The notes under the pieces were generated by a model that was not told the DNA's origin, ran no database searches, and saw only the letters and a list, made by a program, of their open reading frames with translations. Shown one piece after another: positions 32,519 to 52,213 of a DNA stretch of 64,000 nt. Where the stretch lies: the IMG/VR virus record IMGVR_UViG_3300031555_005217, positions 71,047-135,046 of that record; one strand, written 5' to 3'. Source of the stretch: a virus (lineage: Duplodnaviria > Heunggongvirae > Uroviricota > Caudoviricetes). A program made the translations under genes and the position numbers. Every line of letters starts with the position of its first letter. Positions within the stretch are counted from its first letter, which is position 1.

Positions 32519-33457
32519 TTATAAATTTAAAACATATTTAATATAATTATCTGAATATGATTTTAATACCTTAAAATTAATTGTTGGTTGATGGAATTTC
32601 TTTAAAATTATTTCCCAGTTATCTCTAAAGAATTCATTAAATGTTCTATTTAATAATTCAAAGATATATTTAGATGACCATATTCCACCCTTATCTTCAA
32701 TTAATTTATGATACTCTTTTTGAATATGTTCTACTGTCATTAAATTAATTATTGCATGTTCAATTGGATTTTCATCTTTTTCAACTTTATTTTCATGTCT
32801 TAGCTTACCTTTTGATTTTCTAAAATCCTCAGTTAAAACTTTCGCCCATTTAATATGGCCTCATCTGTTTCGATAATCATAATTTTTAATTACAATTCCT
32901 TCACCTGTTCCTTCAGTGATTAAGAATTCTCCGGTCTTATCTAAATAAGATTGAATTTCTTCCTCTGTTGGATTTTCTAATTTTGCAATTAATGGAATAA
33001 TATTAACTTCAGGATATTGTTTCATTTCCTCTCTCCATATATCATAGTTAATATATTTTTCATTTTCAACATCATATACATCAAATAGATATAATTTTTT
33101 CCAAGCATCTTGACCATATCTCTTTATAGTATGTGGAATTAACCACTCACCATATAGAATATAATTAGGATGTTTGCTTAAATAATTATGTAATTGTTGA
33201 TATAATTGGTTAGGAATTTTAAGTCCTGTAACTTCATTGGTATCCAACTGACATAAAGTTTCCATAAATTTACCATTATCATCTTCTAAAGATAATTCTC
33301 TTTTTCTAGATCCAAAGCCTAATAGATTATCATCTCTTAACCATACACAAGCATTTGTTCCATCGATTTTGTAAGTTAAATAACAAGTTCCATTTAGGAT
33401 TCCTTCTACCTCACTTGTTCCAAGTTTTTCAATGTGCATATATTTCTTGAATTCCAT
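32519..33457 (-). CDS. RNA ligase (Rnl-family nucleotidyltransferase); one gene spanning two track ORFs via TGA
   Basis: Motif I YKIDGTNA and motif IV GEGIVIK. ORFs 32861..33457 and 32519..32740 are in the same frame, joined by DYRNR-[TGA]-GHIKWAKVL.... The stop is TAA. Confidence 0.6.
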
Positions 33458-33482
33458 ATTAACACCTCACTATTCACTAATA

Positions 33483-33492
33483 TTATACAATA
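33483..33492 (-). promoter_or_regulatory. class-1 promoter-like motif upstream of the RNA ligase gene
   Basis: attatacaat. Confidence 0.4.
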
Positions 33493-33517
33493 AAAAAGAA
33501 ATAGATATGCTCTATTT

Positions 33518-33964
33518 CTAATTTAAAAGATCTCTTATTTTTATATTTTTTAAATACTCATCATAAATAAATTCACATAAATTTTCATATAAATGTTTAG
33601 AAAAGTCCTTCTGACCTCTTTCATATTTCTCTTGTAGATTAACAAAACATTGAAATAAATATCTAGGTGTTTGATGATTTATAAATATATTTGAATCCAT
33701 TTTAACATTATTACCTAACAAATCATTAAAATAATTATTAAAATATTTCCATTGTTTTATATTAATTTTCCTTTTATTCAATTCATCTAATAACAATAAG
33801 GTATATTTATATAAATCTTCTTTTGGATATTCATAAACATAATTAATTATAATAAATCTATTTCCTTTATTAAATATCAAACATAATTCTCTCCATTGAG
33901 ATACTAATTGTTTATTGGGTAGGTAAGGAAATAATTTATAGTGCCATAAGCGAATAGGAATCAC
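33518..33964 (-). CDS. pyrimidine-dimer DNA glycosylase (T4 endonuclease V / DenV-like)
   Basis: MIPIRLWHYKLFPYLPNKQLVSQWRELCLIF resembles the T4 endoV N-terminus [26 protein letters not shown]. Confidence 0.55.
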   Translation of the reverse strand: MIPIRLWHYKLFPYLPNKQLVSQWRELCLIFNKGNRFIIINYVYEYPKEDLYKYTLLLLDELNKRKINIKQWKYFNNYFNDLLGNNVKMDSNIFINHQTPRYLFQCFVNLQEKYERGQKDFSKHLYENLCEFIYDEYLKNIKIRDLLN

Positions 33965-34065
33965 CTCCTATTACTTATTATTTTATTATTTATGATTTTT
34001 ATAATAATTAATTAAATAATTCAAATATCAAACAGCCTTTTCTAAATCTTGAATTTCTTTTTCTT

Positions 34066-35244
34066 TTATATTTTATATTTAGGTAAGTCCTTTTTATCTA
34101 TCTTAATAAACGTCTTCCCATCTATTGCAATACTTTTATTTATAGATTTTTTTATGAAGTATTCATTAATTTTATAATAATCCACTACATCTTTTAAACA
34201 GTAGAATTCTAAATTATCTTCAATACAGAAGTAACAGTATGATTTATTTCTAGCGGCAGCTCTTGCTGCTATAGAACACTTTTCTTTCATAATCTTTTTT
34301 TGTTCCTCAGTTAACTGTCTTCTATTTAAGGCACTCTGTGACAATCTTTTTTTATACTCCTCAGAATATTTTTTACCTTTATTATAAGGTATAAAGTTAC
34401 TACCTTCAATTTTTCTACCTAACGTTCAATCTGAATAATGTAAGTTATATTCATCTAAAGAAACATGTTTAGTTATTTTTCCATTATTAATTCAAATATC
34501 TTGTGAGTGTAACCCTTTCATATTATCACTCATAAGCTTTCTTGTTTCAATGCTAAATTTCTTACCATTATTGGTTCCATAATATCCAGTTTTTTCAAAT
34601 AAAGTATGTAATCTTTTTTCGGCACTCAGTGATAATCTAAAGTCTATATCTTTAGTTAAATTTTTATTTCAAGGAATTTTACCTAATTGATTTAGGTGAT
34701 TTTTTTCACTTATTATTCTCATTGAGGGATGGGTGAATTTAGTAAGATCTTTATTCCAAGGGATATGATTAGGTTTTCATCAAGATATAGATACTTTTTC
34801 TCTTCAACTATCTGATTGAAAAATTTCTTTTTGTCTTAAATGAAATGCTTCTTTATAAGTTAATAATTTAGGTAATTTTTTAATTAAATCTTCTTCTGAT
34901 ATGTAATTATACTTTTCTGTAGTCATTAAATAGAAGGCACAACATAATCTAATATATAAACTTCTATCAGAAATACATCCACATAAATAATAATGTGCTA
35001 ATATATGATCTTCAATACTTAAATTAACTAAGTTAGTATTACTATTATCTATTTCAAGATTATTTAAAATATAGTAGGATTTAGGTATTATATGATGTCT
35101 TTCTGTTTTAAATTTGATTTTAACAGTATTTATATTATTTAAACATAATTCTATATATTTATTTAAATAATTGTTATCTATAAATACATTTAATCTTAAT
35201 AATTTAGATTTTAATTCTATATACATAAAAAATATCGCCTCCAT
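34066..35244 (-). CDS. HNH homing endonuclease with NUMOD-type DNA-binding repeats; one gene spanning two track ORFs and an unannotated gap
   Basis: HNH motif ERHHIIPKSY...NLVNLSIEDHILAHY; PWNK motifs HIPWNKDL and KIPWNKNL with W encoded by TGA; NUMOD3-like GKKFSIETRKLMS and GKKYSEEYKKRLS. At least 8 in-frame TGA. The likely true start is the second ATG (35226), which has SD ggaggcg. Confidence 0.65.
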
Positions 35245-35256
35245 ATAATTTAGCGA
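35243..35256 (-). promoter_or_regulatory. class-2 upstream motif (plus-strand catataatttagcg; minus-strand CGCTAAATTATATGGAG), overlapping the SD/start region of the HNH endonuclease gene
   Basis: Same motif at about 11330, 25003, 29987, 40605 and 62757. Confidence 0.35.
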
Positions 35257-35286
35257 TATATTTTATTGAATTACCTTCAAAAATTT

Positions 35287-35578
35287 ATTTACTTTCTTTA
35301 TTTTTATTTTCCAAATGTTCTAATAACTTTTCGGCATACCAGATAGCTTTTTTAATGTCTTGTGTTGGATTTTCTTTAAATGGATGTCTTCAAATATATT
35401 TAACTATTTGCCAACTTAAAGACGCATCCCAAGAATCAGTATAAGATTGAACCATTGAGTGTAATGCATCAATACACTCAATATTACCTGAAGTATAATG
35501 TTTAGGATGATTCACTAAATCTTCTTCTAAATCATCTTTAATTTCTTTTATTGACATGTTAAACTCAACTCCTTTCAT
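35287..35578 (-). CDS. DUF3310-like phage protein
   Basis: HPKHYTSGNIECIDAL. Extended past a TGA to roughly 35290. Confidence 0.4.
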
Positions 35579-35599
35579 AAATATACAATTTATACAATA

Positions 35600-35625
35600 A
35601 AAAGTAGGTTTAATTACCTACTTTT
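35600..35625 (-). terminator. bidirectional hairpin gtaggtttaattacctac flanked by A-run and T-run
   Basis: Seen directly in the sequence. Confidence 0.5.
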
Positions 35626-35818
35626 AATTCTTATTATGTTCTGGATGATTATGTTGATTGTACTTCTCTTTAAATCCTATTAAAGCTAAATCATCAATAA
35701 ATTCATAAAAATCAGATTTAGTGATATTGTTATTATAACATATTTCTGTTAAATTTCCTTTTTCTAATAACTCATTTTTAATCATTTGTGCTACATTATT
35801 AAAAACTCTTTTATCCAT
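35624..35818 (-). CDS. hypothetical small protein
   Basis: Intact ORF. Confidence 0.4.
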   Translation of the reverse strand: MDKRVFNNVAQMIKNELLEKGNLTEICYNNNITKSDFYEFIDDLALIGFKEKYNQHNHPEHNKN

Positions 35819-35876
35819 ATTAAATACATCCTTTCAATCGATAAATTTATTTATAATAATATACATTAAAAATTAC

Positions 35877-36044
35877 TATTCTGAATCAGTTGTTGTAGAA
35901 GTTGTTTCTATATTTAAAGTTTCTTTTATTTTATCAACATCACTTTGTAATTGAGTTATTTTTGTATTTAAATTTGACATAAATTTTTCTAAATCTTTAA
36001 TTCTATTAATTATTTTATCTAAATAAGTTTCCATATTACTAAAA
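35877..36044 (-). CDS. small coiled-coil protein
   Basis: METYLDKIINRIKDLEKFMSNLNTKITQLQSDVDKIKETL...; below the track size cut-off. Confidence 0.3.
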
Positions 36045-36249
36045 TCAATTCCTTTCTTTTATTAAATTTAGCAAAAAATAATAAAAAATAATTGTATATA
36101 AAAATAAATATAATATAAAGTATTATCTAATAACTATATTTATATAATTAAGGTGTATTTATTCGGTAAGGTAAATGTCATCTTAATTATTAATAATTTA
36201 AGAATACTTTTACTTTTAGATTTTTATATTATTATACCATGATTTTAGG

Positions 36250-36287: not shown

Positions 36288-36358
36288 AATTTTTTTAATA
36301 AGTATATTATTTATTAAAATGTAATAAATAAACTTGTTGGAGTCTCTTGTTAGAGTGG

Positions 36359-39300
36359 TTATGCTAACGTACACACTTTTGCTATATGGTTACAACCACT
36401 AATAAAACCAGTTTCAAAGTTAATAGTAGGATTATCGTATGTATATCCAGTAAATATATTTGATGTCTTATTGGAATATGTTACATTGACTATATAAGAA
36501 ATAGCGTTACTTGCTAAAGTCCAAATATCAATAGTTGCTGAACCATTGCCTGTAGTACCTTGACCAACAACTACATATCTTCCATTTCCATAGGTACTAG
36601 ATAAAGCGGCAATATCTAACACACCATCTGAGAATACTTTTGAAATATCTATTGTAGGGTTAATCTCCGAAGCAATCTTACTTGATGACCAAGTAGAATA
36701 AGTATTTCCAGTTGATGAATCATTAATATTTCCATATTCAGTAATTGCTGTATATTCTGCTGCTTCATACTCTGCCTGTGATGATGCTACAAAATCTGCA
36801 CTAGTATAAATTTTACTATACTTATCTATTTGTTGAGTTTTTGGGCGAATTATCATAGTATTAAAGGGAGTTGCTTTGTAAATAAATAAATCTACTTGAT
36901 AATGTCCACTACCTGTAAGTGATTTAAAATTTCCTCATTTTACGGAAATAGTGCTTTGAGGATTACCTCTTAAACCAATATTTTTTACGATACATGAAGA
37001 AGCAGAATCACTATTACTATATACGGAAATAATACTCTCATATCCTAAAACATTAACTGAAAATGTTGTTTCTCTTCCATAATACAAATCTACTGTAAGT
37101 TTTCTGTATCTACTATCAGTAAAATATATTTCATTAAATGGAGTAGCGCCTTGAACTCGTTTTTCCACTGTTGCAAGAGTATTTTTAGAAGCAAATGCAC
37201 TTTCAGGTATTAAAGTCATCTCACTCTTGTCAGCAGGTAAGGCTGTAACCATTTCAGGTCGGGTAATTGCGCCACTCACTTTAATAGTACACCATTGTCT
37301 AATTTCAAGATAATAACAACCATTAGTAGGATAGTAATACAAACGTTGAATCTTATAATTAGGATCAATTCCATCATACAGAGTATAATCTGTTGCACTA
37401 TATGTGGTCCAATCACCATAACTATATCTAACCAATTTAACAGATTTATATGTACCGTCATCAGCCATACCAGTAATTTCAACTTTTCCTCCATATTGGT
37501 CGGTAATTGTAATAGGTTGGAATTTTGTAACATTACCTAATGTTAATTTAAGCCATTGTGTAGCACTTGCCGTACCAAATGTGTACACACCATACTTCGC
37601 ATCAATCTTAGAAGAAGAATATGTAGAAGTAGTCGATACTATCTCATCTGAAATAACACTATCTAAAATTTCTTTAGGAACTGATTTTGTTATTTCTGTT
37701 CCAGTATAAGTTTCACTGCTAGATAAAGCAGGAATATCTCCGTGAACTGGAATAATTGATGCATATCAAATTTGATCAGTTACTGTTGGAATTATATATA
37801 AATCACAATTGTCGATATATTTACTAAAAGATCTTTCCCCTTGTAATTGTTGAACTCTACATCTTGCTTCAGTACCAGCACCGTAATTAGTAATTAAGAA
37901 AGTACCATATCCTGTTCCTATAGTTGTTCTGACAGATAAAATTGCTGTAGTTAACTTATTAGGTAATAAACTTACTTTTAAATACTGACCACTTTCTATA
38001 GTTGTTGTTGATTTTAATTCTACTTTTTTAGCAAAATCATTATTAATTTCATCAGCAGTAAGATATTTTTCTAAAGTTTTATTTAATCCTTTTAATTCAA
38101 CATCAATTTTAACAACTGAAGGATCAAGAACTTCTCATCCACTTCCTGTCCAATAGTAATAAACATTTTCTGTTTCACTAAGTAAAAGAATACAGTCATC
38201 AGGTTTTAAAACACTAACATCTGGTAAAGTATCACTCTCTGTATAAACTCCAATAAAATGACATTCTTTATCGGAAGTAAGACTGTTATCTAAATTATCT
38301 AACTTAGTTTTATATTCTTCAGTGAAGTTATTATCAGTGTGAACATAATTTTTATCTATAACAAGACCTTCTGGCTCTGTATAATTTTCAAGTCCCGCTA
38401 ACTTTTCTTTCTCTGCTGTCGTAAAGTCATTTGTTGATAACCCTTTTCCTTCTACCTTATTTACTTTATTTCCAAGAGAGACTTTAATTTCGCTATCATC
38501 ATAATTGTTTAGATTTGCTAATTTTTCTTTCTCTGCTGTCGTAAAGTCATTTGTTGATAACCCTTTTCCTTCTACTTTATCAACTTTATTTCCAAGAGAG
38601 ACTTTAATTTCGCTATCATCATAATTGTTTAGATTTGCTAATTTTTCTTTCTCTGCTGTCGTAAAGTCATTTGTTGATAACCCTTTTCCTTCTACCTTAT
38701 TTACTTTATTATCTATTTCAACTTGTAAATCAGAAGCATCAAAATTATTTAATCCAGCTAATTTTAACTTTTCTTCATCTGTAAAATCATTAGTAGAAAG
38801 ACCTTTTCCTTCAATCTTATCTACTTTATTCGATAAATTTGTGTTTAGCGCCGCGATCTCAGTTAAAGCGGCATCATAACTTCCTACTTTTGAAGCATTA
38901 ATTCCACTATTAACAGCTTCTAATTGAGTTTGAGTTAAAGTATTTTGTTTTGTATCTAACTCTTCTTTGCTGGCTAAATGAGTTAAGTCAACCATACCAC
39001 CTAATTTATCCCATTGACTACCATCTCAAGCATAATTATCTCCAGTATCTAGTACATTATATACATCACCTATTGTTTGATCAGCAGAAGGTAAACTGTC
39101 ATAAGAATCAACGGTTCCTCTATATTTATAAGAAGTTGATGTTTTTGCATCTACTTCAGCTTTAGTGTAAACATCTGCTTTATTAGCTTTTAAATCAAGA
39201 GATAAGTCTGTTTCAGTTTTAGTATAATGATTTACGGCTTGCGCAGCGATTTGATTGTCAACATAATCTTTAGTAGCTTTATCTTCTAAATTTGCACTTG

Positions 39301-40060
39301 TAAGAAAATCGCTATCATTTGTTAATTGAGAAGTTTTTGTAGGAATATTATCTACTTTATTTTTATACTCATTAGTAAAATCATTTGTAGATAATCCTTT
39401 TCCATTAACTTTATCTACTTTATTTTCTAAAGTTGTTTCAATTCCTGTTGCATCGAAATTGCTTAAATTAGATAATTTAAGTTTTTCTTCATCAGTAAAG
39501 TCATTACTAGATAAACCTTTACCATCAATTTTTTCTACCTTATTATTTAATGCATTTTGAATTGCAGTATCATCAAAGTTATTTAAGTTAGATAACTTAT
39601 TTTTTTCTTCAGAAGTGAAATTATTATCAGTATGAACATAGGTTTCATCAACTACTATATTTTCCGGTAATTTCTCTAAAGTTGCAAGTTTCTCCTTTTC
39701 TGCTGTAGTAAAATCTTCTGTACTTAGCCCTTTTCCAATGACTTTATCTACTTTATTTTCTAAAGATTCTTTGACTTCTGTATCATCATAATTTTCTAAA
39801 GATGCTAATTTTGTTTGGGTTTCATTCTTGAAGTTTTCATAATTAATATCTTTTACTACTGTATTAGGTAAGACATATTTATTAGCACCTTCTTCAATAC
39901 CATTTAATTTATTAGCTTGATCTTCTGTAAAAGTATTTTCAGGGATAGTATATATAATTCCATCAACACTTAAACTAGTTAATTCTGATTCATTTCCTGT
40001 TGTGCTTGGATTAACTATTACTTTTGTATCTCCGCTTAATTTTCTAAAAGTATAAGCCAT
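36359..40060 (-). CDS. giant tail fibre / receptor-binding protein (about 1230 aa) with tandem 40-aa repeats; one gene spanning four track ORFs
   Basis: ORFs 39026..40060, 38135..38995, 36935..37588 and 36359..36856 are in the same frame and are joined only by TGA codons (...GDNYA-[TGA]-DGSQWDKLGGMVDL..., ...YYYWTGSG-[TGA]-DEVLDPS...). KVDKVEGKGLSTNDFTTAEKEKLANLNNYD repeats. Confidence 0.65.
38400..38720. repeat. about 120-bp DNA tandem repeat, roughly 2.7 copies, inside the tail-fibre gene
   Basis: Near-identical units beginning ttttctttctctgctgtcgtaaagtcatttgttgataaccc... at about 38403, 38523 and 38643. Confidence 0.7.
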
Positions 40061-43905: not shown

Positions 43906-44349
43906 TTAAAATCCAACTAAAAAGATATCATTTTTACAATCTTTAGTTTTATCATAAATTAAAGATATTACATCACTTACTTTTAGATTTCCACATCCAC
44001 AACCTATAGGTGGAATAGCTACTTTTTTATTTTGAAAAGTATTTAAAAATCTAACTAACCCATTTAACCCAGACTCTATATATTCGATTTTAGAATCAAA
44101 TTTCCAGTCTGTTTTTGTTGGAAATAAAATAAATTCTTTTTTATTATATTCTAAATATAAGATATGTCCTATTTCTACTTCTTTATTAGTACAAGCAATT
44201 AAATATTCATTAAATAAGTTAGGATATTTTTGTTTAAATTGTAAGGCTAATCCTGCTCCCATAACTCCTACACAATTAACCGGAATTATAGGAATTATTT
44301 TACTATCTTTTAAATTTAAAATATCTTTTTCAGTATTATAATAAAGCAT
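43906..44349 (-). CDS. Macro domain protein (ADP-ribose binding / hydrolase family)
   Basis: IPVNCVGVMGAGLALQF and PPIGCGCGNL. Confidence 0.6.
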   Translation of the reverse strand: MLYYNTEKDILNLKDSKIIPIIPVNCVGVMGAGLALQFKQKYPNLFNEYLIACTNKEVEIGHILYLEYNKKEFILFPTKTDWKFDSKIEYIESGLNGLVRFLNTFQNKKVAIPPIGCGCGNLKVSDVISLIYDKTKDCKNDIFLVGF

Positions 44350-44351
44350 AA

Positions 44352-44840
44352 TTAGATATTATATTTTGAATCAAATAATTCTTTTACATCTGAATAAGAT
44401 ACATTTTCAGCTTCTGAATATTTTTTTAATCTAGAATATAAAATATTTAAATTTGAATTTCTAATAATTTCTTCATCATATTCATAATCATATAAAACTG
44501 AATCTAATACATATTCAAGTTTTTCGTTATATTCTTTAATGTTCTCTTCTTTGAAAAAAGATTTTGCATCTTCCTCACAAACTTTTTTATAATAATTAAC
44601 TACAGAATCTTCATCTAAAATTGATTCAATACATTCAAGAGAGACCATTAAATTATAAATGTCCTTATCTCTTCCATCTAATTCTACATCATTATCTTTG
44701 AAATAATGTCTTATTCCATCTATTAAAGTATCAAAAGGAACTTCATAATTTAAATCTTCAGTATCTCCATTACTATTTTGAAATGTGTAAAGTATATAAA
44801 AGTTAGTTGACATTCCTTTTCTATCTTCATTTCTAGTCAT
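44352..44840 (-). CDS. acidic hypothetical protein
   Basis: Intact ORF. Confidence 0.4.
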   Translation of the reverse strand: MTRNEDRKGMSTNFYILYTFQNSNGDTEDLNYEVPFDTLIDGIRHYFKDNDVELDGRDKDIYNLMVSLECIESILDEDSVVNYYKKVCEEDAKSFFKEENIKEYNEKLEYVLDSVLYDYEYDEEIIRNSNLNILYSRLKKYSEAENVSYSDVKELFDSKYNI

Positions 44841-45081
44841 AATTCACCTCTAAATTTTCATCATCTAAATCTTTTTCAGTTAAACCTATATCTTCAGTTG
44901 ATATTATTACTTGATCACATAAACTAATATTTTCTGTATGATTGTAACATTTTGTAATAAATTTAACTTTTTTATTTTTAATTTCTTCAGATAATTTTTC
45001 AGCTTCATTTTCATCTTTTGCTGTAACGTTAAAAGCAGTATTATCTTCAAAAACTATATTGTAGCTATTTTCTTTTTTCAT
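44833..45081 (-). CDS. hypothetical small protein
   Basis: Intact ORF. Confidence 0.4.
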   Translation of the reverse strand: MKKENSYNIVFEDNTAFNVTAKDENEAEKLSEEIKNKKVKFITKCYNHTENISLCDQVIISTEDIGLTEKDLDDENLEVNYD

Positions 45082-45100
45082 ATAAATTCTCCTTATAAAT

Positions 45101-45110
45101 AATATACAAT
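45101..45110 (-). promoter_or_regulatory. class-1 promoter-like motif
   Basis: aatatacaat upstream of 44833..45081. Confidence 0.35.
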
Positions 45111-46408
45111 TATTCAGCTGCTTTGAAATTATATATAGGTTTAATTATCTTTGTAATTTCAACAGTATCACCAATAGCATTAATTATTTCTTCCATAGGT
45201 TTATAAGCCATAGGTGCTTCATCTAATGTACTTTCATTTGCAGTAGTGGTAAAGATATTAGACATTTCATTTTGGAAATCTTCTACTTTTAATACCTCTT
45301 TAGCTTTCATTCTTGACATAATACGACCAGCACCATGAGGAGCTGAATAGTTCCAATCTTCATTTCCTTTTCCTATTCCAATAATACAACCATCTCTCAT
45401 GTTCATAGGAATAATTACATTCTTACCTTTATGAGCTGATATAGCACCTTTTCTAACCATATCTTCATCATCAATGTAGTTATGAACAGATTCAAAATAG
45501 GTAAGGTTAGCAACACCATCAGTAGTAGGAATTGAATCTCTTACATCTAGGTTATAATATTTAATTTGTTTACCTTTGTAATATATAAACCTATCAAGAA
45601 TCTTTCTTGCTATAGAATATCTATTTTCCTGTGCAAATTGTTGACAGATTCTCATATCATGTAGATAATCCTCTCTATCCTCACCTTCCAAGTAACATAA
45701 GTCTTTAGGTAATTTTGTTAACCCATTATATTTATCATATAAGGCTTTTAAGGCATTTTCAATTTCTTTCTCTCTACCTTGTTCTTTATATTCTTTTAAA
45801 ATAGCTAATCTTTCACTATTTAATTCTTCTTTATAAGAACAATGTTCAATAGCTATTTGTTGGTAAATATCTGCAACTTGTTTACCTAAGTTACGTGAAC
45901 CAGTATGAATAACTAAATATAAATTATCCTCATCATCTTTATCAATTTCAATAAAGTGATTTCCACCACCTAATGTACCCAGACTAGATCTTAAGTGTTC
46001 TTTATTCTTTAAATATCTATAACAATATAATTTTTGTAAATATGTTCTTTCTACATATTCTTCAGATAAAGATATATCATTAGGGAATATTCTCTTATCA
46101 CTATAATCATTAACTTCAAAACCATTAGGAATGTTGTTTTTAATGAAATTATCTAACTCAAATAAATTAAGATCAATCTTACCTAAATTAACACATAACA
46201 TTCCACAGCCTATATCAACACCTACAATATTAGGGATTACTTTTTTACCTAGATTACCTGTAAAGCCAATTACACAACCCATACCGGCATGAACATCAGG
46301 CATTATTCTAACCTTACAATCTTTAAAGGCTTCTTGTTGTAAAAGAGTGTTAATTTCTTCCATTGCTTTTTCTTCTATGTTATTAGTAAATATTTTTAAA
46401 TCAGACAT
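45110..46408 (-). CDS. rtcB: RtcB RNA-splicing ligase (3'-phosphate/5'-OH ligase)
   Basis: MPDVHAGMGCVIGF, GGNHFIEI, HGAGR. Confidence 0.85.
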   Translation of the reverse strand: MSDLKIFTNNIEEKAMEEINTLLQQEAFKDCKVRIMPDVHAGMGCVIGFTGNLGKKVIPNIVGVDIGCGMLCVNLGKIDLNLFELDNFIKNNIPNGFEVNDYSDKRIFPNDISLSEEYVERTYLQKLYCYRYLKNKEHLRSSLGTLGGGNHFIEIDKDDEDNLYLVIHTGSRNLGKQVADIYQQIAIEHCSYKEELNSERLAILKEYKEQGREKEIENALKALYDKYNGLTKLPKDLCYLEGEDREDYLHDMRICQQFAQENRYSIARKILDRFIYYKGKQIKYYNLDVRDSIPTTDGVANLTYFESVHNYIDDEDMVRKGAISAHKGKNVIIPMNMRDGCIIGIGKGNEDWNYSAPHGAGRIMSRMKAKEVLKVEDFQNEMSNIFTTTANESTLDEAPMAYKPMEEIINAIGDTVEITKIIKPIYNFKAAE

Positions 46409-46426
46409 ATTTATAAACTCACCTCT

Positions 46427-46633
46427 TTAATATACTAATTCACCTTTTCTAAATCTCCAAGTTTCCAGTGTATTAAAATGTGAATTAATTCTTCTAATTT
46501 GACAAGTTCCATAACCACAATACCAATCGGCGTAATCCATTATCTTTGATTTTGCTTCTTCATAAGATGTAGCAATATATACATCTCTACTATGCCATTC
46601 ATCAATTGTAACTGATATTATATAAAATTCCAT
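46427..46633 (-). CDS. hypothetical small protein
   Basis: Trimmed to MEFYIISV, which has SD taggaggt. Promoter motif at 46661-46670. Confidence 0.4.
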   Translation of the reverse strand: MEFYIISVTIDEWHSRDVYIATSYEEAKSKIMDYADWYCGYGTCQIRRINSHFNTLETWRFRKGELVY

Positions 46634-46688
46634 AAAGTAAATACCTCCTATGTTTATAATTTTATACAATTAAAGATACTAAAGAATC

Positions 46689-47024
46689 TTACTCCCATAA
46701 TACTTTTTCATTTAAAACTGTTAACAATATTATTGTTGATAAAGTATTAAATAAAGTAAGTCCAATTAACCAATATACTTGTGATAATTCAATAAAATAT
46801 AATCGTTCATAATAGAGTCCATTAGGTCCTATTGCCGAATAATAAACAGAACCATTTTCATTTACACTTGATAATATTGAACCTGGTAATATTATACCTT
46901 GACCATATATTTGACCTACTTTAGTTTGATAACAAACTGCTAATATAACACTTAATGTAATAATAGCTGTTAAAGCAATTACCATACAATTTACTAATCT
47001 TTTACTCATAAATATTTCCTCCAT
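46689..47024 (-). CDS. membrane protein
   Basis: Two predicted TM helices. Confidence 0.4.
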   Translation of the reverse strand: MEEIFMSKRLVNCMVIALTAIITLSVILAVCYQTKVGQIYGQGIILPGSILSSVNENGSVYYSAIGPNGLYYERLYFIELSQVYWLIGLTLFNTLSTIILLTVLNEKVLWE

Positions 47025-47045: not shown

Positions 47046-47573
47046 TTACCTTTCAAAAATTAACTTAGCTTCATTAATTTCCTTTTCAGTTAATCCTTCT
47101 CCATAGAAGTCGGTAAGTACCGTGTTATATGGAAAATACTTAGAAAATGAATCATCCTCATCATCAAATATAACAAATTTATCTGTTGGAAAAGTAAAAT
47201 GTTTATTTATGTAATCTAATATCTCTTCTGCCCTGTTTTCATGTTGTCCATATATTGGAGTTTTTCCAACTAAAGGGATATTATACGTCTTGAATAAATC
47301 ACACATATACTTACCTCTACTTATTTCAATAGATCCATCATAATATTTAACATAATCCTGTTTTGGGGTTAGATCATCTTTTAATGTACTTCTCCAAGAT
47401 GAGGATAAAACAACTAAACAATTATATTCATTACAGAAATCAGATAATAACTTTAATCTACTTTCATCTATACTTGCTATTTTTTCTTTATGTTTTATAA
47501 TATATTCTTTACAATTTAATACACCATCTATATCAACTATATCAAGAAAAATATAATTCATAGTTATCACCAT
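47046..47573 (-). CDS. HAD-superfamily phosphatase (polynucleotide 3'-phosphatase-like)
   Basis: Motif I FLDIVDIDGVLN (DxDG). Confidence 0.4.
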   Translation of the reverse strand: MVITMNYIFLDIVDIDGVLNCKEYIIKHKEKIASIDESRLKLLSDFCNEYNCLVVLSSSWRSTLKDDLTPKQDYVKYYDGSIEISRGKYMCDLFKTYNIPLVGKTPIYGQHENRAEEILDYINKHFTFPTDKFVIFDDEDDSFSKYFPYNTVLTDFYGEGLTEKEINEAKLIFER

Positions 47574-47640
47574 ACCTTATTATTAATATATACAAGGAAA
47601 AAGAATAGCAAAAGCTATTCCAAAATAAAAATAATAAAAT

Positions 47641-48601: not shown

Positions 48602-48604
48602 AAA

Positions 48605-48991
48605 CTAATCCTCCAAATATTTTTTAAATAATTCAGCATAAAATACAATTAAGTTATCCAATTCTTCATTGAATGCCTTAAGAGAATATTTATCTTTTAA
48701 TTTGTTTTGATATATTTTTAATATATTTAATCCTATTCTACACTTAACAAGAATTATATCATATAAACCACTTTCAAAATGAATTATAGATTTATACTCC
48801 TTGAACTTGTCTGAAATTTTATGTAATCTGTTAAATATATAACGTGAGTATTTCATTATCTCATGGTATTTCATACCAGGATCATTTTCATATTCATTTG
48901 CTAACTCAAACTTATATAAATCATTAAAAGCACCTTCGTGTATCGATCTAGCTATATCTTTTAAATCGCATAATAATAATTCTACTTTCAT
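48605..48991 (-). CDS. hypothetical protein
   Basis: Intact ORF. Confidence 0.4.
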   Translation of the reverse strand: MKVELLLCDLKDIARSIHEGAFNDLYKFELANEYENDPGMKYHEIMKYSRYIFNRLHKISDKFKEYKSIIHFESGLYDIILVKCRIGLNILKIYQNKLKDKYSLKAFNEELDNLIVFYAELFKKYLED

Positions 48992-48992
48992 A

Positions 48993-49415
48993 TTATAACC
49001 ACCTTATGTTAAACATTTCATCTAACTTATCTAATGCATATTCTTGTTCTTTAGTTAAATCAACATCACTAAATAAAAACTCTCTATTATGTAACATTGC
49101 TATACCCAATCTTCTTGAAATGAAATCTCCAGATAAAACAATCATATTAGAATAATATTCTTTTGTTTCTTCATCAATATCCTCATCTGCCCAAGATTCC
49201 ATTTGTTTAGCTAAAACATCTTTAAACTTTTCAACTATTTCAGGATAATACTTTTTAGAATATTCAACAACTGTAGAGGCATGACTTCCATTATTTACTA
49301 AAATTGTTCTTCCATCTGGAAATATTACGAATGAAACATCATATCCACGTATATCTTTATATTGATCTAAATCAGTTTTTAATATTTCATCATACATTTC
49401 TCTAATACACTCCAA
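48993..49415 (-). CDS. hypothetical protein
   Basis: Intact ORF. Confidence 0.4.
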   Translation of the reverse strand: MECIREMYDEILKTDLDQYKDIRGYDVSFVIFPDGRTILVNNGSHASTVVEYSKKYYPEIVEKFKDVLAKQMESWADEDIDEETKEYYSNMIVLSGDFISRRLGIAMLHNREFLFSDVDLTKEQEYALDKLDEMFNIRWL

Positions 49416-49678
49416 TCTTCATCTAATAACTTGGTTGTATACATCAATTTAATTAACTCTTCGCCATAATATTTACTAAGTATTGGGGTATGAATTTCCT
49501 TTGAATATAATTTACCATTAATTAAAGAGATTTGAATAACATAATCTTTGAATACTTCTTTACTATAGGTATGTATATAAAGAGTATCAAAAGCACCTGT
49601 ATGGGTATTATAATATTTTAAATCTCTTAATTTTGTATCTGCATCCTTAAGTCTAGATATTAGTTCATTATTTTCCAT
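49379..49678 (-). CDS. hypothetical protein
   Basis: Intact ORF. Confidence 0.35.
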   Translation of the reverse strand: MENNELISRLKDADTKLRDLKYYNTHTGAFDTLYIHTYSKEVFKDYVIQISLINGKLYSKEIHTPILSKYYGEELIKLMYTTKLLDEDWSVLEKCMMKY

Positions 49679-49692
49679 TATTAATTACCTCA

Positions 49693-50016
49693 CTATTCAT
49701 AAGTATATTTTATTTTAACACCTTCAATATTTTCAGCAATTGTCTTTTCATCTAAAGAACTTAATATTGTAGATAATAAATCTAATAAACAATCTTTATA
49801 TTCTTTATTTAACTTAATGGTACTTGATTCTATTCTATCTTTACTATCAAAATATAATCCACATACTTTATCTACCATATCAATAAGTAATTGTCTAAAG
49901 ATTTGCATATTTTTAAGAGACTTAGGATCATAAGATTCATTACCATAAAATGCTACATCTCCAAGTAATTTAAAAAATACATCATATATCACAGCTTTAT
50001 TTATACTACTATTCAT
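49693..50016 (-). CDS. hypothetical protein
   Basis: Intact ORF. Confidence 0.4.
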   Translation of the reverse strand: MNSSINKAVIYDVFFKLLGDVAFYGNESYDPKSLKNMQIFRQLLIDMVDKVCGLYFDSKDRIESSTIKLNKEYKDCLLDLLSTILSSLDEKTIAENIEGVKIKYTYE

Positions 50017-50028
50017 ATTAATTACCCC

Positions 50029-50220
50029 CTATAATAAGAAAAATATTAATAACTCTAAAACAAGAATAGCAATGGCTACTCCTCCAATACATAAGTAAGG
50101 TTTAACAGATGTTTGATCATAATCTTCAAATTTAATACTGAATAAAGATAAACCAATTAATCCGCCGATACCAACTAAAAGAATTAGCGCAGCTTGTAAT
50201 GCCGATAATTCCATAAACAT
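50029..50220 (-). CDS. small membrane protein
   Basis: Hydrophobic. Promoter motif at 50238-50247. Confidence 0.4.
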   Translation of the reverse strand: MFMELSALQAALILLVGIGGLIGLSLFSIKFEDYDQTSVKPYLCIGGVAIAILVLELLIFFLL

Positions 50221-50263
50221 CTACCTCCGTTTTATATATAATACAATATTGTAAAATAAAAAC

Positions 50264-50509
50264 CTATTGTTTTTCAATAGGTTTTTTATCTTTAAATAAC
50301 AATATAATATTTATAATATTTATTATAATTATGATTGCATTACAGATAGCAGTACTCCAAGCAGTAATAAGGATACCATAAATAACAAATAAAACATTTC
50401 CACATATAGTTAACAATCTCATTAACATATTAGTTTTAAATGAAGTTGATTTAAAAGACATTGAGATTATTAAAAATATACTAGCAATAATACCAATTAA
50501 TTCGAACAT
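50264..50509 (-). CDS. small membrane protein
   Basis: Hydrophobic. Confidence 0.35.
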   Translation of the reverse strand: MFELIGIIASIFLIISMSFKSTSFKTNMLMRLLTICGNVLFVIYGILITAWSTAICNAIIIIINIINIILLFKDKKPIEKQ

Positions 50510-51177
50510 ATAGAATTATCACTTTCAATATTATTAATATCAGATATAAAATTATTAGATTCTAGAAGATTAAGTAAATGTGAAGGTAAGTTACTATAAA
50601 CTTCTGGTATAGATATAATTTGGTTAATAATATATGCATAATTACTTGCTTGATCTAAAAATCTGTTCTTATCATTTTTAAGATCTCTAATTTCATTTAA
50701 TAAAGATCTATTATCCTGAAGATGTTTATCTTGCTCTATCTGCATAATCTTTAATTTACTTTCAAGCTCACTAATTTTGTTATCTTTCTCTGCTAAATCG
50801 GACTCAAATACCCCTTTTATGTCCTCTTTGTAAGATGTTGCACCGCAATCTAGTTTATTTCTTACTTTGGATCCTTGCACTCTCTTTTCTAACTTTTTTA
50901 TAGGTGAAACAACATCGAGATCCAAACCAAGACTAGATAATTTAAGATATCTTTCTAGAAGGTTTTTATCTATCATATACCTACAAAAATGCTTTACTTC
51001 AACATCATCTGCATCTAAACGTAAGCTTTCATAAGCACCTCTATCTTTAGGATCTCTGGTATAAAGATCAAGGGTAAGATTATATTTAAACTTTTTATTT
51101 AATTTATCAAAAGATTCTATTACATCTAAATCTTTCTTTATTTTAGTTATTTCTCTTATTTTATCATCTAAATTCAT
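50497..51177 (-). CDS. hypothetical coiled-coil protein
   Basis: Intact ORF. Confidence 0.4.
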   Translation of the reverse strand: MNLDDKIREITKIKKDLDVIESFDKLNKKFKYNLTLDLYTRDPKDRGAYESLRLDADDVEVKHFCRYMIDKNLLERYLKLSSLGLDLDVVSPIKKLEKRVQGSKVRNKLDCGATSYKEDIKGVFESDLAEKDNKISELESKLKIMQIEQDKHLQDNRSLLNEIRDLKNDKNRFLDQASNYAYIINQIISIPEVYSNLPSHLLNLLESNNFISDINNIESDNSICSN

Positions 51178-51188
51178 ATAACATACCT

Positions 51189-51464
51189 CTAAAAATTATT
51201 AATAATTGATTCTAATTGAAGGGTTAGTTCATTAATTAAAATTCTATATCTTTTAATTTTTGCTTTTGAATGATATTTTAACTTCTTATCATAGAATGTT
51301 CTCCATTTAATATGATAATTTTCTCTATCATTATCCCAATCTGTTTGCTCAACTACTTTATTATATTCTTCCATATAAATAATATTATCATGAATACAAT
51401 TTGTTAGTTGTTTAGTATGGTACTTTATTAATGTCTCTAATTCTTTTAATTCAGTTGTTTTCAT
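51189..51464 (-). CDS. hypothetical protein
   Basis: Intact ORF. Confidence 0.4.
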   Translation of the reverse strand: MKTTELKELETLIKYHTKQLTNCIHDNIIYMEEYNKVVEQTDWDNDRENYHIKWRTFYDKKLKYHSKAKIKRYRILINELTLQLESIINNF

Positions 51465-51473
51465 AATTACCTC

Positions 51474-51932
51474 TTAATAATTAGTTTTATTAGATATATT
51501 CTTATACTCATCATATAAATGTAAACATTCTAATCTATCTAATTCCTTTATAAATTCAGCTTTTTCTTCTTCAGTCATCTTATAAAATTTATTATCTCTA
51601 AATCCAATATCTTCAGTATCATAAATATTACATCCATAATAAACTTTATCAATATTTGACCATAAGATTGCTCCTAAACACATAGGGCAAGGTTCACCAG
51701 TAGTATATAATTCACAACCACTTAAATCAAATGTTTTTAATTTTTTAGATGCCTTCCTAATTGCCATCATTTCACCGTGACAAGTAGCATCTTTGTTTTT
51801 AATTACTTGATTATGTCCTTTAGCAACAATTTTTCCATTTTTTACAATAACTGTTCCAAATGGTCCCCCATGACCTTTATAAATACCTTTTCGAGCTTCT
51901 TTAATTGCTTCTAACATAAATTTATTTACCAT
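51474..51932 (-). CDS. CDA-fold nucleotide / tRNA-adenosine deaminase (TadA / guanine-deaminase-like)
   Basis: Zinc motifs HGEMMAIRKA and TGEPCPMCLGAILWSNIDKVYYG. Confidence 0.6.
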   Translation of the reverse strand: MVNKFMLEAIKEARKGIYKGHGGPFGTVIVKNGKIVAKGHNQVIKNKDATCHGEMMAIRKASKKLKTFDLSGCELYTTGEPCPMCLGAILWSNIDKVYYGCNIYDTEDIGFRDNKFYKMTEEEKAEFIKELDRLECLHLYDEYKNISNKTNY

Positions 51933-52213
51933 TATTGAATATTCTCCTCTTTATCTTCTACTTCATTTGCCTTATAAAACAATCCTGCATGAAAACCATT
52001 AATAAATTCCTCATTATCTTTTATAGGTTCATCAGGTAATATTAACATACTAACAAAAATAATTATTGTGGCAATAGCAATTGCAACTGATCCACATAAC
52101 ATTTCCATAAATGTTTCATTATAAAAATATATCCAAGTTAATCCGAAAGCTAATAAAAGTAAGGCGATGGATAACATTACAATAGATAAAATTTTAATTT
52201 TCTTTTCCATCAC
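51932..52213 (-). CDS. membrane protein
   Basis: Hydrophobic. Confidence 0.35.
   Translation of the reverse strand: MMEKKIKILSIVMLSIALLLLAFGLTWIYFYNETFMEMLCGSVAIAIATIIIFVSMLILPDEPIKDNEEFINGFHAGLFYKANEVEDKEENIQ

What the first reader, a model, noticed from the sequence alone, without database searches (positions are those of the whole stretch)
32519..52000. RNA-repair / tRNA-maintenance toolkit: RtcB, Rnl-type RNA ligase, HAD phosphatase, two metallophosphoesterases and a TadA-like deaminase alongside the tRNA array
RtcB (45110-46408) seals 2',3'-cyclic-phosphate/5'-OH breaks. The Rnl-type ligase (32519-33457) seals 3'-OH/5'-P breaks. The HAD phosphatase (47046-47573) and metallophosphoesterases (6051-6893, 7802-8671) could heal ends. 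Together with about 26 tRNAs this looks like a countermeasure against host anticodon nucleases (PrrC/RloC/colicin-type) or toxin ribonucleases. The TadA-like deaminase (51474-51932) could supply the A34-to-I34 editing that the phage's own tRNA-Arg(ACG) needs.
Basis: partly seen in the sequence, partly recalled or inferred. Interest (0 to 1): 0.6.

Follow-up and report, generated by a model that had tools for sequence, protein, structure and literature searches.

The report
Phage RNA-repair and tRNA toolkit
A large gut-type phage that reads TGA as an amino acid carries a known kind of RNA-repair kit (RtcB ligase, a second RNA ligase, a phosphatase, a Ro-like protein with tRNA-mimic RNAs, and a full tRNA set), but the supposed tRNA-editing deaminase is really a guanine-deaminase type enzyme.

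Summary
All six ORFs exist at the stated coordinates and belong to the stated superfamilies. RtcB (45110-46408), the PF09414/Rnl2-like RNA ligase (32519-33457) and the HAD phosphatase (47046-47561, Pfam HAD_SAK_2) are solid. About 26 tRNAs is correct.

Corrections:
- The ligase and the second metallophosphoesterase are whole only if in-frame TGA is read through. The phage uses TGA as a sense codon, probably Trp.
- The "TadA-like" deaminase matches B. subtilis guanine deaminase end to end. It misses the TadA model cut-off.
- Nothing ties the two metallophosphoesterases to RNA repair.
- No polynucleotide kinase is visible in about 75 kb.

- A Ro-like RNA-binding gene at the window's right end, followed by six about 117-nt units. 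Two of them are YrlA-type tRNA mimics.
- A NADAR gene.
- A DarG-like macrodomain.

The same set lies within about 12.6 kb in Listeria phage LMSP-25: tRNA array, Ro-like, phosphohydrolase, RtcB, NADAR, RNA ligase. This is therefore a new member of a known, already annotated kind of phage RNA-repair and tRNA-provisioning system. A role against host RNA-cutting defences is inferred, not shown.

The parts
45110..46408 (-). RtcB RNA ligase (3'-phosphate or 2',3'-cyclic phosphate plus 5'-OH), 432 aa, no in-frame TGA
   Evidence: Pfam RtcB 6.3e-62, profile positions 13-425 of 426. Active-site motifs align with 2EPG and 4DWR. 46% identical to Listeria phage RtcB and 48% to gut-phage fragment MT837221.
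47046..47561 (-). Stand-alone HAD phosphatase of the 'Swiss-army-knife' RNA-repair type (HAD_SAK_2), three genes upstream of RtcB
   Evidence: PF18143 7e-18. Invariant DxDGV, SSSW and DD motifs in 39 homologs. Neighbours in relatives are T4 Rnl1-like ligase plus kinase-HD (L018) and RtcB (L049, L087). No member has been characterised biochemically, as far as I know.
47602..47621 (-). Terminator-like hairpin just upstream of the HAD gene. It may mark the start of a HAD-to-macrodomain transcription unit.
   Evidence: 2 sites found against 0.9 expected, so weak. Gaps between the genes from 47561 down to 43906 are at most 28 nt.
44352..47024 (-). Four small unannotated ORFs interleaved with RtcB: 46689-47024 (membrane-like), 46427-46669, 44833-45081, 44352-44840
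   Evidence: No Pfam or PHROG match. The 82-aa ORF has a homolog between HAD and Macro in the 208-kb relative L017.
43906..44349 (-). Macrodomain, DarG-like, last gene of the HAD-RtcB gene string
   Evidence: Pfam Macro 1.7e-10. PDB 5M3I (M. tuberculosis DarG macrodomain) 5.2e-25 and 5M31 3.8e-21. PDB identities confirmed in PMC5179494. The FPTK catalytic-lysine motif is kept. HAD and Macro are also neighbours in L017.
32519..33457 (-). ATP-dependent RNA ligase, PF09414 family with Rnl2-like two-domain build, 312 aa, one in-frame TGA (32861-32863)
   Evidence: Pfam 2.3e-20. PHROG 548 'RNA ligase' 2.9e-36, full length. 3236 homologs with invariant K30, D32, G33, E104, F125, D126, E186, G187, K206. 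AlphaFold model of the 95%-identical P0001 has pLDDT 90. Best Foldseek match is full-length T4 Rnl2 (2HVR, 2HVQ), 5e-10.
22364..30206 (-). Array of 26 tRNA genes covering all 20 amino acids, interspersed with homing-endonuclease-like ORFs
   Evidence: ARAGORN. Rfam tRNA hits. Extra genes: Asn 26294-26367, Gly(TCC) 25062-25132, probable Glu(TTC) 27363-27434.
30111..30206 (-). tRNA with anticodon UCA (reads UGA), 96 nt, with a 25-nt extra arm
   Evidence: The extra arm is conserved with compensatory changes in L102 and absent in L100. TGA positions align with W, Y or F in homologs.
63677..64000 (-). 3' end of a 528-aa Ro-like RNA-binding protein gene (DUF2828 plus vWA). The gene runs on to about 65263, beyond the window.
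   Evidence: Full copy is L103:2598-4184. Pfam DUF2828 8e-25 and DUF7788 2e-43. PHROG 850 'RNA-binding protein' 3.5e-121. Weak PDB match to TROVE proteins, E 0.015. 711 phage records, some annotated 'Ro-like RNA binding protein'.
62925..63665 (-). Six tandem units of about 117 nt directly downstream of the Ro-like gene. Each has a -10-like box, then CATACAGCAA, and a 3' box GGTnTAGTAAA. Units 3 (core 63323-63376) and 6 (core 62946-62999) are permuted tRNA-like (T arm, closed hairpin, D arm), as in YrlA Y RNAs.
   Evidence: ARAGORN calls both units tRNA-like after circular permutation at a relaxed threshold. My own scanner finds unit 3 and finds the same architecture next to the Ro-like genes of phages Jubie and Porthos, with about 1 weak hit per shuffled window. 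Architecture as defined in PMC4201824. No Rfam match.
5401..5880 (-). NADAR-domain protein. Its homolog lies two genes after RtcB in Listeria phage LMSP-25.
   Evidence: Pfam NADAR 1e-19. 27% identical to LMSP-25 gp078, annotated COG3236.
6051..6893 (-). Metallophosphoesterase 1, with a Cys-rich insert. Membership of the kit is not shown.
   Evidence: Pfam Metallophos 8e-7. PHROG 547 'phosphoesterase'. No PDB relative.
7802..8656 (-). Metallophosphoesterase 2, lambda-phosphatase/NinI/ApaH-like, three in-frame TGA codons. Membership of the kit is not shown.
   Evidence: Pfam 1e-12. ApaH, PrpE and Pnkp models all far below cut-off. Lambda phosphatase 1G5B 5e-5. PHROG 246 'NinI-like serine-threonine phosphatase' 4e-22.
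51474..51932 (-). Zinc deaminase of the guanine-deaminase (GuaD) type. It is not part of the RNA kit.
   Evidence: PDB 1WKQ and 1TIY guanine deaminase 1.3e-32 over residues 5-152, including the C-terminal Tyr and the Asp of GFxD. TadA matches cover the core only. TadA equivalog 78.4 bits against a cut-off of 150.

Best explanation
The window is about one third of a roughly 190-kb, 27% G+C phage genome that uses TGA as a sense codon. It carries the phage version of the bacterial Ro60/Y-RNA plus RtcB RNA-repair system, together with its own full tRNA set.

Proposed working.
- The 26 tRNAs, including a UGA-reading tRNA, let the phage translate its A/T-rich, TGA-containing genes. They also replace host tRNAs that are cut.
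- RtcB directly reseals RNA broken by metal-independent nucleases, which leave 2',3'-cyclic phosphate or 3'-phosphate plus 5'-OH ends.
- The Rnl2-like ligase seals 3'-OH/5'-phosphate nicks in folded RNA.
- The SAK-type HAD phosphatase trims phosphate ends for that second route.
- The Ro-like protein, with its tRNA-mimic Y-like RNAs, binds or sorts damaged structured RNA.

Shown: domain identities, intact catalytic motifs, and recurrence of the same gene set as a tight cassette in other phages.
Inferred: substrates, the order of the steps, and the purpose (countering host RNA-cutting defences such as anticodon nucleases).

The deaminase, the DarG-like macrodomain and the two metallophosphoesterases are best treated as separate functions: nucleotide metabolism, removal of ADP-ribose from DNA, and unknown.
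For: - Domain assignments.
- Catalytic motifs: RtcB, ligase, HAD.
- Ligase fold is closest to T4 Rnl2.
- Listeria phage LMSP-25 has tRNA array, Ro-like, HD phosphohydrolase, RtcB, NADAR and RNA ligase within about 12.6 kb. The last five genes span 6.5 kb. Ro-like, RtcB, NADAR and the ligase are homologous to the window's proteins.
- RtcB is directly followed by a Ro-like gene in gut-phage fragment MT837221.
- A tRNA array lies next to the Ro-like gene in Enterococcus phage Porthos.
- HAD_SAK_2 lies next to a T4 Rnl1-like ligase and a kinase-HD protein in relative L018.
- HAD followed by RtcB on the same strand occurs in L049 and L087. Their HAD is 29-33% and their RtcB 23-31% identical to the window's, at 55% and 44% G+C.
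- YrlA-type T arm/hairpin/D arm elements lie beside the Ro-like gene here and in the control phages. This matches the published definition (PMC4201824).
- The general scheme for jumbo phages is published (PMC7824862).
Against: - In this phage the genes are scattered over about 60 kb, so co-regulation is not shown.
- In the closest relative with data (L017, 208 kb) HAD and Macro are neighbours without RtcB between them.
- Among 54 dereplicated viral HAD loci, only a minority have a recognisable RNA-repair neighbour.
- No 5' polynucleotide kinase was found in the window, in 7.6 kb of left flank or in 3.9 kb of right flank. The heal-and-seal route for the Rnl2-like ligase is therefore incomplete in what can be seen.
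- A 3'-phosphatase next to RtcB is odd, because RtcB needs the 3'-phosphate.
- The HAD_SAK_2 and DUF2828 families have no biochemical characterisation that I know of.
- A full U34-rich tRNA set is also explained by codon usage and recoding alone.
Confidence: 0.65

Rival explanations
1. The genes are independent accessories with no joint repair pathway. On this view the tRNA set serves codon usage and TGA recoding only, and RtcB, the ligase and the Ro-like/Y-like RNAs act on the phage's own RNAs (processing, turnover, quality control) rather than repairing defence-inflicted breaks.
For: The genes are scattered over 60 kb. The tRNAs mostly have U34 and fit a 27% G+C genome with 53 in-frame TGA codons. 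RtcB is absent between HAD and Macro in relative L017. Bacterial Ro60/Y RNA is known for structured-RNA degradation with PNPase (abstract of PMC4201824).
Against: The same components are contiguous in LMSP-25 and partly in MT837221. HAD-RtcB and HAD-Rnl1-kinase adjacencies recur in distant phages. No intron-bearing or split tRNA that would need a ligase was detected.
Confidence: 0.2
2. One reading: the two metallophosphoesterases heal RNA ends for the ligases, and the deaminase is a TadA that edits A34 of the phage tRNA-Arg(ACG).
For: Metallophosphoesterase 2 shares its N-terminal motifs with lambda phosphatase and with the phosphatase domain of bacterial Pnkp, and it hits a multidomain 'RNA ligase' PHROG. 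The deaminase has the H(A/G)E and PCxxC motifs shared with TadA. A tRNA-Arg(ACG) is present.
Against: The bacterial Pnkp model scores 19.5 bits against a cut-off of 750, and the TadA model 78 against 150. The deaminase aligns end to end with guanine deaminase, including the C-terminal Tyr, while TadA matches stop at residue about 100. The metallophosphoesterases lie 37 kb from RtcB, beside NADAR, a GT_PLOD-like gene and replication genes. From general knowledge, host TadA is nearly universal and could edit the phage tRNA.
Confidence: 0.07
3. The HAD protein is a nucleotide phosphatase for nucleotide-pool management, and its place near RtcB is incidental.
For: No HAD_SAK_2 member has been characterised. 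Most neighbours in 54 viral loci are unannotated or unrelated to RNA. The phage carries other nucleotide-metabolism genes: a ThyX-like gene, a guanine-deaminase-like gene, and 7-deazaguanine genes in the flank.
Against: RtcB and RNA_ligase are among the few families that recur among the nearest neighbours. The HAD/Rnl1/kinase-HD order in L018 mirrors the phosphatase, kinase and ligase functions of T4 Pnkp plus Rnl1. Pfam and the jumbo-phage survey place the family in RNA repair.
Confidence: 0.15

Closest known systems
tRNA / Ro-like / RtcB / NADAR / RNA-ligase cassette of Herelleviridae phages (Listeria phage LMSP-25, NC_024360; Enterococcus phage Porthos)
   Same: Homologous Ro-like protein (36%), RtcB (46%), NADAR (27%) and PF09414 ligase (23%), next to a large tRNA array, with a phosphoesterase just before RtcB.
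   Different: Here the parts are spread over about 60 kb instead of about 12.6 kb. The phosphoesterase is a SAK-type HAD rather than an HD hydrolase. The genome reads TGA as sense. There are six tandem Y-like units.
Bacterial rsr-yrlBA-rtcBA RNA-repair operon (Salmonella) and YrlA Y RNAs
   Same: A Ro-type protein, tRNA-mimic RNAs in the order T arm, closed acceptor-like hairpin, D arm beside its gene, and RtcB in the same genome (operon described in PMC7790460, seen).
   Different: The protein belongs to the DUF2828/vWA 'Ro-like' family, with only a weak sequence link to solved TROVE proteins. No RtcA or RtcR was found in the window or the visible flanks. There is no Rfam match for the RNAs. 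The published GNCGAA Ro-binding motif was not seen; the units carry a CATACAGCAA box instead.
Phage T4 Pnkp plus Rnl1/Rnl2 tRNA repair against the PrrC anticodon nuclease
   Same: An ATP-dependent ligase with an Rnl2-like fold and a DxDxT-type (HAD) phosphatase for end healing (T4 Pnkp chemistry in PMC3592404, listed).
   Different: No 5' kinase was found. The phosphatase is a separate small protein of another HAD family. RtcB offers a kinase-independent route that T4 lacks.
Jumbo-phage RNA-repair repertoire (Iyer et al. 2021, PMC7824862)
   Same: The combination of many tRNAs, RtcB, Rnl-family ligases, stand-alone 'Swiss-army-knife' HAD, calcineurin-like phosphoesterases, Macro, NADAR, Nudix and ROT/TROVE proteins is described there.
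   Different: This phage is an uncultured, TGA-recoded lineage with no close relative in the phage, IMG/VR or metagenome collections searched.
B. subtilis guanine deaminase GuaD (PDB 1WKQ, 1TIY)
   Same: Full-length alignment at 116 bits, with the zinc ligands, the catalytic Glu, the Asp of GFxD and the C-terminal Tyr conserved.
   Different: The motif is HGE instead of HAE. The substrate is untested.

Membership tests
RtcB RNA ligase (PF01139) | Full-length match above the curated cut-off | tested here: met
   210.6 bits against a cut-off of 27, profile positions 13-425 of 426.
RtcB RNA ligase (PF01139) | Metal-binding and guanylyl-histidine motifs | tested here: met
   MPDvHaG, GvDIgCG, GNHF, HTGSR and HGAGR align with 2EPG and 4DWR. 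Residue roles are from general knowledge.
RtcB RNA ligase (PF01139) | GTP- and Mn-dependent joining of 3'-phosphate or cyclic-phosphate ends to 5'-OH ends | not testable with these tools
   Needs an enzyme assay.
PrfH-coupled RtcB2 (TIGR03073 / PRK09588) | Equivalog score above cut-off, and a PrfH neighbour | tested here: not met
   94 bits against 272, and 112 against 407. No release-factor-like domain in the window.
Rnl2-like ATP-dependent RNA ligase (PF09414) | Pfam match and nucleotidyltransferase motifs I, III, IIIa, IV and V | tested here: met
   73.9 bits against a cut-off of 27. KIDGTN, YGEW, FD, EGIVIK and WAK are invariant in 40 sequences.
Rnl2-like ATP-dependent RNA ligase (PF09414) | C-terminal helical domain as in T4 Rnl2 | tested here: inconclusive
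   The top Foldseek hits are full-length T4 Rnl2 (5e-10, about 352 aligned columns), but TM is only about 0.48 and rmsd is high. The two domains may be oriented differently.
Rnl2-like ATP-dependent RNA ligase (PF09414) | Preference for RNA over DNA nicks | not testable with these tools
   Needs an enzyme assay. A separate ATP-dependent DNA ligase exists at 11348-12748.
HAD_SAK_2 (PF18143) | Pfam match above cut-off, with HAD motifs I-IV | tested here: met
   65.8 bits against a cut-off of 27.5. DxDGV, SSSW, a conserved Arg and DD are invariant. This protein alone has an IVD insertion before motif I.
HAD_SAK_2 (PF18143) | Genomic association with RNA ligases or kinases | tested here: met
   L018 has HAD, Rnl1-like ligase, kinase-HD. 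L049 and L087 have HAD followed by RtcB. This holds in only a minority of 54 viral loci.
T4-type heal-and-seal pathway (kinase plus phosphatase plus ligase) | A 5' polynucleotide kinase in the genome | tested here: inconclusive
   None in the 64-kb window or the flanks seen. Not among the top 120 homologs of a relative's kinase.
tRNA adenosine deaminase TadA | Equivalog score above cut-off, and TadA as the best characterised relative | tested here: not met
   78.4 bits against 150. Guanine deaminase scores 116 bits full length against 85 bits for the TadA core only.
Guanine deaminase, GuaD type | Full-length similarity, including the C-terminal Tyr and the Asp that contact guanine | tested here: met
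   Alignment of residues 5-152 to 1WKQ, with the Asp of GFRD and the terminal Y152 conserved. Residue roles are from memory of the 1WKQ paper. Activity is untested.
Bacterial Pnkp / lambda-phosphatase-type RNA end-healing phosphoesterase | Membership of the Pnkp family, or a link to a ligase | tested here: not met
   The bacter_Pnkp model scores 19.5 bits against 750. Only the N-terminal motifs resemble lambda phosphatase. No ligase or kinase neighbour.
Ro60/TROVE plus YrlA Y-RNA module | A TROVE-type RNA-binding protein | tested here: inconclusive
   PHROG 850 'RNA-binding protein' 3.5e-121, and 'Ro-like' annotations in phage records. Direct sequence link to solved TROVE proteins is only E 0.015.
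Ro60/TROVE plus YrlA Y-RNA module | An RNA next to the gene with T arm, acceptor-like closed hairpin and D arm, in that order | tested here: met
   Units 3 and 6. The same is found beside the Ro-like genes of phages Jubie and Porthos. Definition from PMC4201824.
Ro60/TROVE plus YrlA Y-RNA module | Match to a curated Y-RNA model, or the conserved Ro-binding motif GNCGAA | tested here: not met
   No Rfam hit at E up to 10. The motif was not seen in the units.
DarG-type macrodomain | Closest solved relatives are DarG macrodomains, with the catalytic Lys conserved | tested here: met
   5M3I 5.2e-25 and 5M31 3.8e-21. FPTK is kept, but the residue equivalent to K29 is Ala.

The most novel reading that the evidence does not exclude
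The scattered genes would act as one Ro-centred ribonucleoprotein repair machine. The six tandem, individually promoted Y-like RNAs (two tRNA mimics and four without a tRNA-like core) would be an expanded guide or scaffold family. They would bring the Ro-like protein together with RtcB, the HAD phosphatase and the Rnl2-like ligase onto different damaged RNAs. One target would be the phage's unusual extra-arm UGA-reading tRNA, so that translation of the TGA-containing genes is protected. The recurrent order of a phosphoesterase followed by RtcB would then reflect an end-healing step for RtcB that has not yet been described.
Probability: 0.12. Interest if true: 0.65.

Novelty: new member of a known kind. 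Interest (0 to 1): 0.35.

Why it matters
The window shows that the tRNA-provisioning and RNA-repair package seen in Herelleviridae and in jumbo phages also exists in an uncultured gut or rumen-type phage that reads TGA as sense. This phage depends on its own UGA-decoding tRNA, which gives RNA repair an added rationale. The practical gains are corrected annotation and several testable parts.

Corrected annotation:
- The deaminase is of the guanine-deaminase type, not TadA.
- The macrodomain is DarG-like.
- There is a Ro-like gene with Y-like RNAs.

Testable parts:
- An uncharacterised HAD family that repeatedly sits before RtcB.
- A very abundant, uncharacterised family of 300-aa RNA ligases.
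- A six-unit Y-like RNA array.

None of this changes current understanding unless experiments show a new chemistry or a new role.

Tried and rejected
- Close relatives. Megablast of 22 kb against phages found nothing. IMG/VR searches with RtcB gave only relatives at or below 50% identity that share RtcB alone. The single-sequence HAD search gave none.
- Kinase hunt. Pfam scans of all ORFs read with TGA as Trp, a Walker-A scan, the flanks, and homologs of a relative's kinase checked for the 191,569-bp contig found no kinase.
- Walking along the genome. Two metagenome DNA scans for the right end found nothing.
- Promoter scans equal the shuffled expectation in this A/T-rich DNA.
- A search for the CATACAGCAA promoter-like box in IMG/VR gave essentially random single hits.
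- A covariance model of the Y-like core was not built, because the two-sequence MAFFT alignment was out of register.
- Archease, RtcA, PrfH, 2H phosphoesterase, CCA-adding enzyme and RlaP: no Pfam hits in the window.
- tRNA(UCA) as tRNA-Sec was rejected. It has a normal 7/5 acceptor/T-stem geometry and a 4-bp D stem, and TGA aligns with aromatic residues.

Full report
**Setting.** The window has 26.8% G+C, and essentially all of its genes are on the minus strand. Standard-code ORF calling breaks several genes at TGA. Allowing TGA read-through raises the longest minus-strand ORF from 1455 to 3702 nt. It gives 53 in-frame TGA codons in 22 of about 90 genes, against 168 TGG codons. TGA positions align with Trp (encoded by TGG), Tyr or Phe in homologs. 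A tRNA with anticodon UCA lies at 30111-30206. The window is identical to part of a 191,569-bp JGI metagenome contig, and the same phage occurs in several ENA and JGI samples. No close relative exists in the phage or IMG/VR collections.

**Checking the observation.**
- RtcB (45110-46408) is unambiguous. Pfam gives 6.3e-62 over the whole profile, and the metal-binding and guanylyl-histidine motifs align with solved RtcBs.
- The ligase (32519-33457) is one ORF only if the TGA at 32861-32863 is read. It matches PF09414 (2.3e-20) and PHROG 548 'RNA ligase' over its full length.
- The ligase belongs to a family of more than 3000 proteins of about 300 aa, in which the ligase motifs are invariant.
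- A confident model of its 95%-identical homolog (pLDDT 90) is closest to full-length T4 Rnl2. Archaeal Rnl3 and Naegleria Rnl5 come next.
- The HAD protein matches the Pfam family named for 'Swiss Army Knife RNA repair proteins' (7e-18). It keeps all HAD catalytic motifs.
- Both metallophosphoesterases are real. The second needs three TGA read-throughs.
- ARAGORN and Rfam together give 26 tRNAs covering all 20 amino acids.

**What does not hold.**
- The deaminase aligns end to end with B. subtilis guanine deaminase (116 bits, residues 5-152). The alignment includes the C-terminal tyrosine and the aspartate that I recall as guanine contacts. TadA structures match only the catalytic core, at 85 bits or less.
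- The NCBIfam TadA model scores 78 bits against a cut-off of 150. I therefore reject the TadA reading.
- Metallophosphoesterase 2 resembles lambda phosphatase, NinI and ApaH. Metallophosphoesterase 1 has no characterised relative.
- Both metallophosphoesterases sit 37 kb from RtcB, between a NADAR gene, a GT_PLOD-like gene and replication genes. A role in RNA end healing is possible in principle, but nothing here supports it.
- No polynucleotide kinase was found in the window, in 7.6 kb to the left or in 3.9 kb to the right. A probe with a relative's kinase was uninformative.

- Two genes downstream of RtcB lies a macrodomain whose nearest solved relatives are the DarG macrodomains (5.2e-25). 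DarG removes ADP-ribose from DNA, so this gene is more likely a counter to DarT-type toxins than an RNA-repair part.
- A NADAR gene lies at 5401-5880.
- A 528-aa gene straddles the right end of the window (63677 to about 65263). It is a DUF2828 plus vWA protein and matches PHROG 850 'RNA-binding protein' at 3.5e-121.
- That protein family occurs in 711 phage records, some annotated 'Ro-like RNA binding protein'. Its direct link to solved TROVE proteins is weak (E 0.015).
- Directly downstream of that gene, a 954-nt stretch without ORFs holds six units of about 117 nt. Each starts with a -10-like box followed by CATACAGCAA and carries a 3' box GGTnTAGTAAA.
- Units 3 and 6 contain a T arm, then a closed hairpin, then a D arm. 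This is the permuted tRNA-like order that defines bacterial YrlA Y RNAs (PMC4201824).
- After circular permutation, ARAGORN calls both units tRNA-like at a relaxed threshold.
- A simple scanner that I wrote finds unit 3. As positive controls it finds the same architecture in the gaps next to the Ro-like genes of Mycobacterium phage Jubie and Enterococcus phage Porthos. Shuffled windows give about one weak hit. Rfam has no match.

**Are the parts linked?** Within this phage the only tight string is HAD, two small ORFs, RtcB, two small ORFs, Macro. Its gaps are at most 28 nt, and a terminator-like hairpin lies just upstream of HAD. Evidence from elsewhere is stronger.
- In Listeria phage LMSP-25 a tRNA array is followed by a Ro-like gene, an HD phosphohydrolase, RtcB, a NADAR (COG3236) gene and an RNA ligase. 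The five genes span 6.5 kb, and the whole set including the tRNAs spans about 12.6 kb. Four of the proteins are homologous to the window's.
- In a gut-phage fragment, RtcB is directly followed by the Ro-like gene.
- In phage Porthos, the tRNA array abuts the Ro-like gene.
- In relative L018, HAD_SAK_2 precedes a T4 Rnl1-like ligase and a kinase-HD protein.
- In two distant phages (44% and 55% G+C), HAD is followed by RtcB on the same strand.
- Against this, the 208-kb relative L017 has HAD and Macro without RtcB between them. Most of the 54 viral HAD loci show no recognisable repair neighbour.

**Mechanism.** The domain identities and motif conservation are shown. The rest is inferred.
- I think the tRNA set supplies decoding capacity, including UGA, and substitutes for cleaved host tRNAs.
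- RtcB reseals cyclic-phosphate/5'-OH breaks on its own.
- The Rnl2-like ligase seals 3'-OH/5'-phosphate nicks once the ends are healed by the HAD phosphatase and by a kinase that is not yet found.
- The Ro-like protein, with its Y-like RNAs, handles damaged structured RNA.
- A phosphatase beside a ligase that needs a 3'-phosphate remains unexplained.

**Comparison and novelty.** The composition matches the repertoire described for jumbo phages (PMC7824862), the Herelleviridae cassette, and the logic of the Salmonella rsr-yrlBA-rtcBA operon. RtcB alone is present in 649 phage records, and the ligase family in 295. This is a new member of a known kind. The unusual points are the TGA recoding, the six-unit Y-like array, the extra-arm tRNA(UCA) and the scattered layout. 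Interest is modest.

Noticed in passing
whole window; e.g. 32861-32863, 7802-8671, 36359-40060: TGA is read as a sense codon. There are 53 in-frame TGA codons in 22 of about 90 genes, against 168 TGG. They align with W, Y or F in homologs. Many genes, including RtcB, HAD and the block of small ORFs at 44-54 kb, have none.
   Followed up: partly
30111-30206 (-): The UGA-reading tRNA(UCA) is 96 nt long and has a 25-nt extra arm. The arm recurs with compensatory base changes in IMG/VR locus L102:930-1023 but is absent from the 73-nt tRNA(UCA) of L100. The acceptor end (A1-U72, G73) looks Trp-like, from memory of the identity rules.
   Followed up: partly
62925-63665 (-) and 63677-64000 (-): Six tandem units of about 117 nt, each with a -10-like box and CATACAGCAA, lie just downstream of a Ro-like (DUF2828/vWA) gene. 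Units 3 and 6 are YrlA-type permuted tRNA mimics. Units 1, 2, 4 and 5 share only the end boxes.
   Followed up: partly
43906-44349 (-) and 5401-5880 (-): A DarG-like macrodomain and a NADAR protein. Both are candidate erasers of ADP-ribosylation on nucleic acids, and so possible counters to DarT-type toxins. The HAD and Macro genes are also neighbours in the 208-kb relative L017.
   Followed up: partly
L010:14633-18024 (left flank, beyond window position 1) and 51474-51932: QueD (PTPS), a radical-SAM QueE-like gene, GTP cyclohydrolase I and a QueC-like gene lie just outside the window. They suggest 7-deazaguanine DNA modification. The guanine-deaminase-type enzyme in the window might relate to guanine handling in that pathway.
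   Followed up: no
47523-47561 (-): The HAD protein has a 3-residue insertion (IVD) immediately before the catalytic DxDGV motif. It is absent from all 38 aligned homologs, including a 70%-identical one.
   Followed up: no
18394-21513 (-): Four paralogous ORFs (18394-18717, 18737-19300, 19313-19903, 20788-21513) begin with the same motif, M(K/I)QIR(R/K)xVFETNSSS(T/S)H. None has a Pfam match.
   Followed up: no
24285-25157, 26397-27284, 34066-35244, 56539-57396 (-): Homing-endonuclease-like ORFs (NUMOD3 and GIY-YIG signals, many TGA codons) sit inside and around the tRNA array and near the ligase.
   Followed up: no
30964-33964 (-): The ligase is flanked by a small ThyX-like protein (178 aa, 3 TGA), an SPFH/Band-7 membrane protein and a Pyr_excise (T4 endonuclease V-like) protein. 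In relative L018 the same Pyr_excise and ThyX-like genes frame a HAD/Rnl1/kinase-HD module instead. A Band-7 gene also lies near the Ro-like gene of phage Jubie.
   Followed up: partly
L010:11885-14604 (left flank): The family-A DNA polymerase is encoded as two adjacent ORFs of 543 and 362 aa. Each contains one in-frame TGA.
   Followed up: no
62087-62722 (-): A Nudix hydrolase with four in-frame TGA codons lies just downstream of the Y-like RNA array.
   Followed up: no
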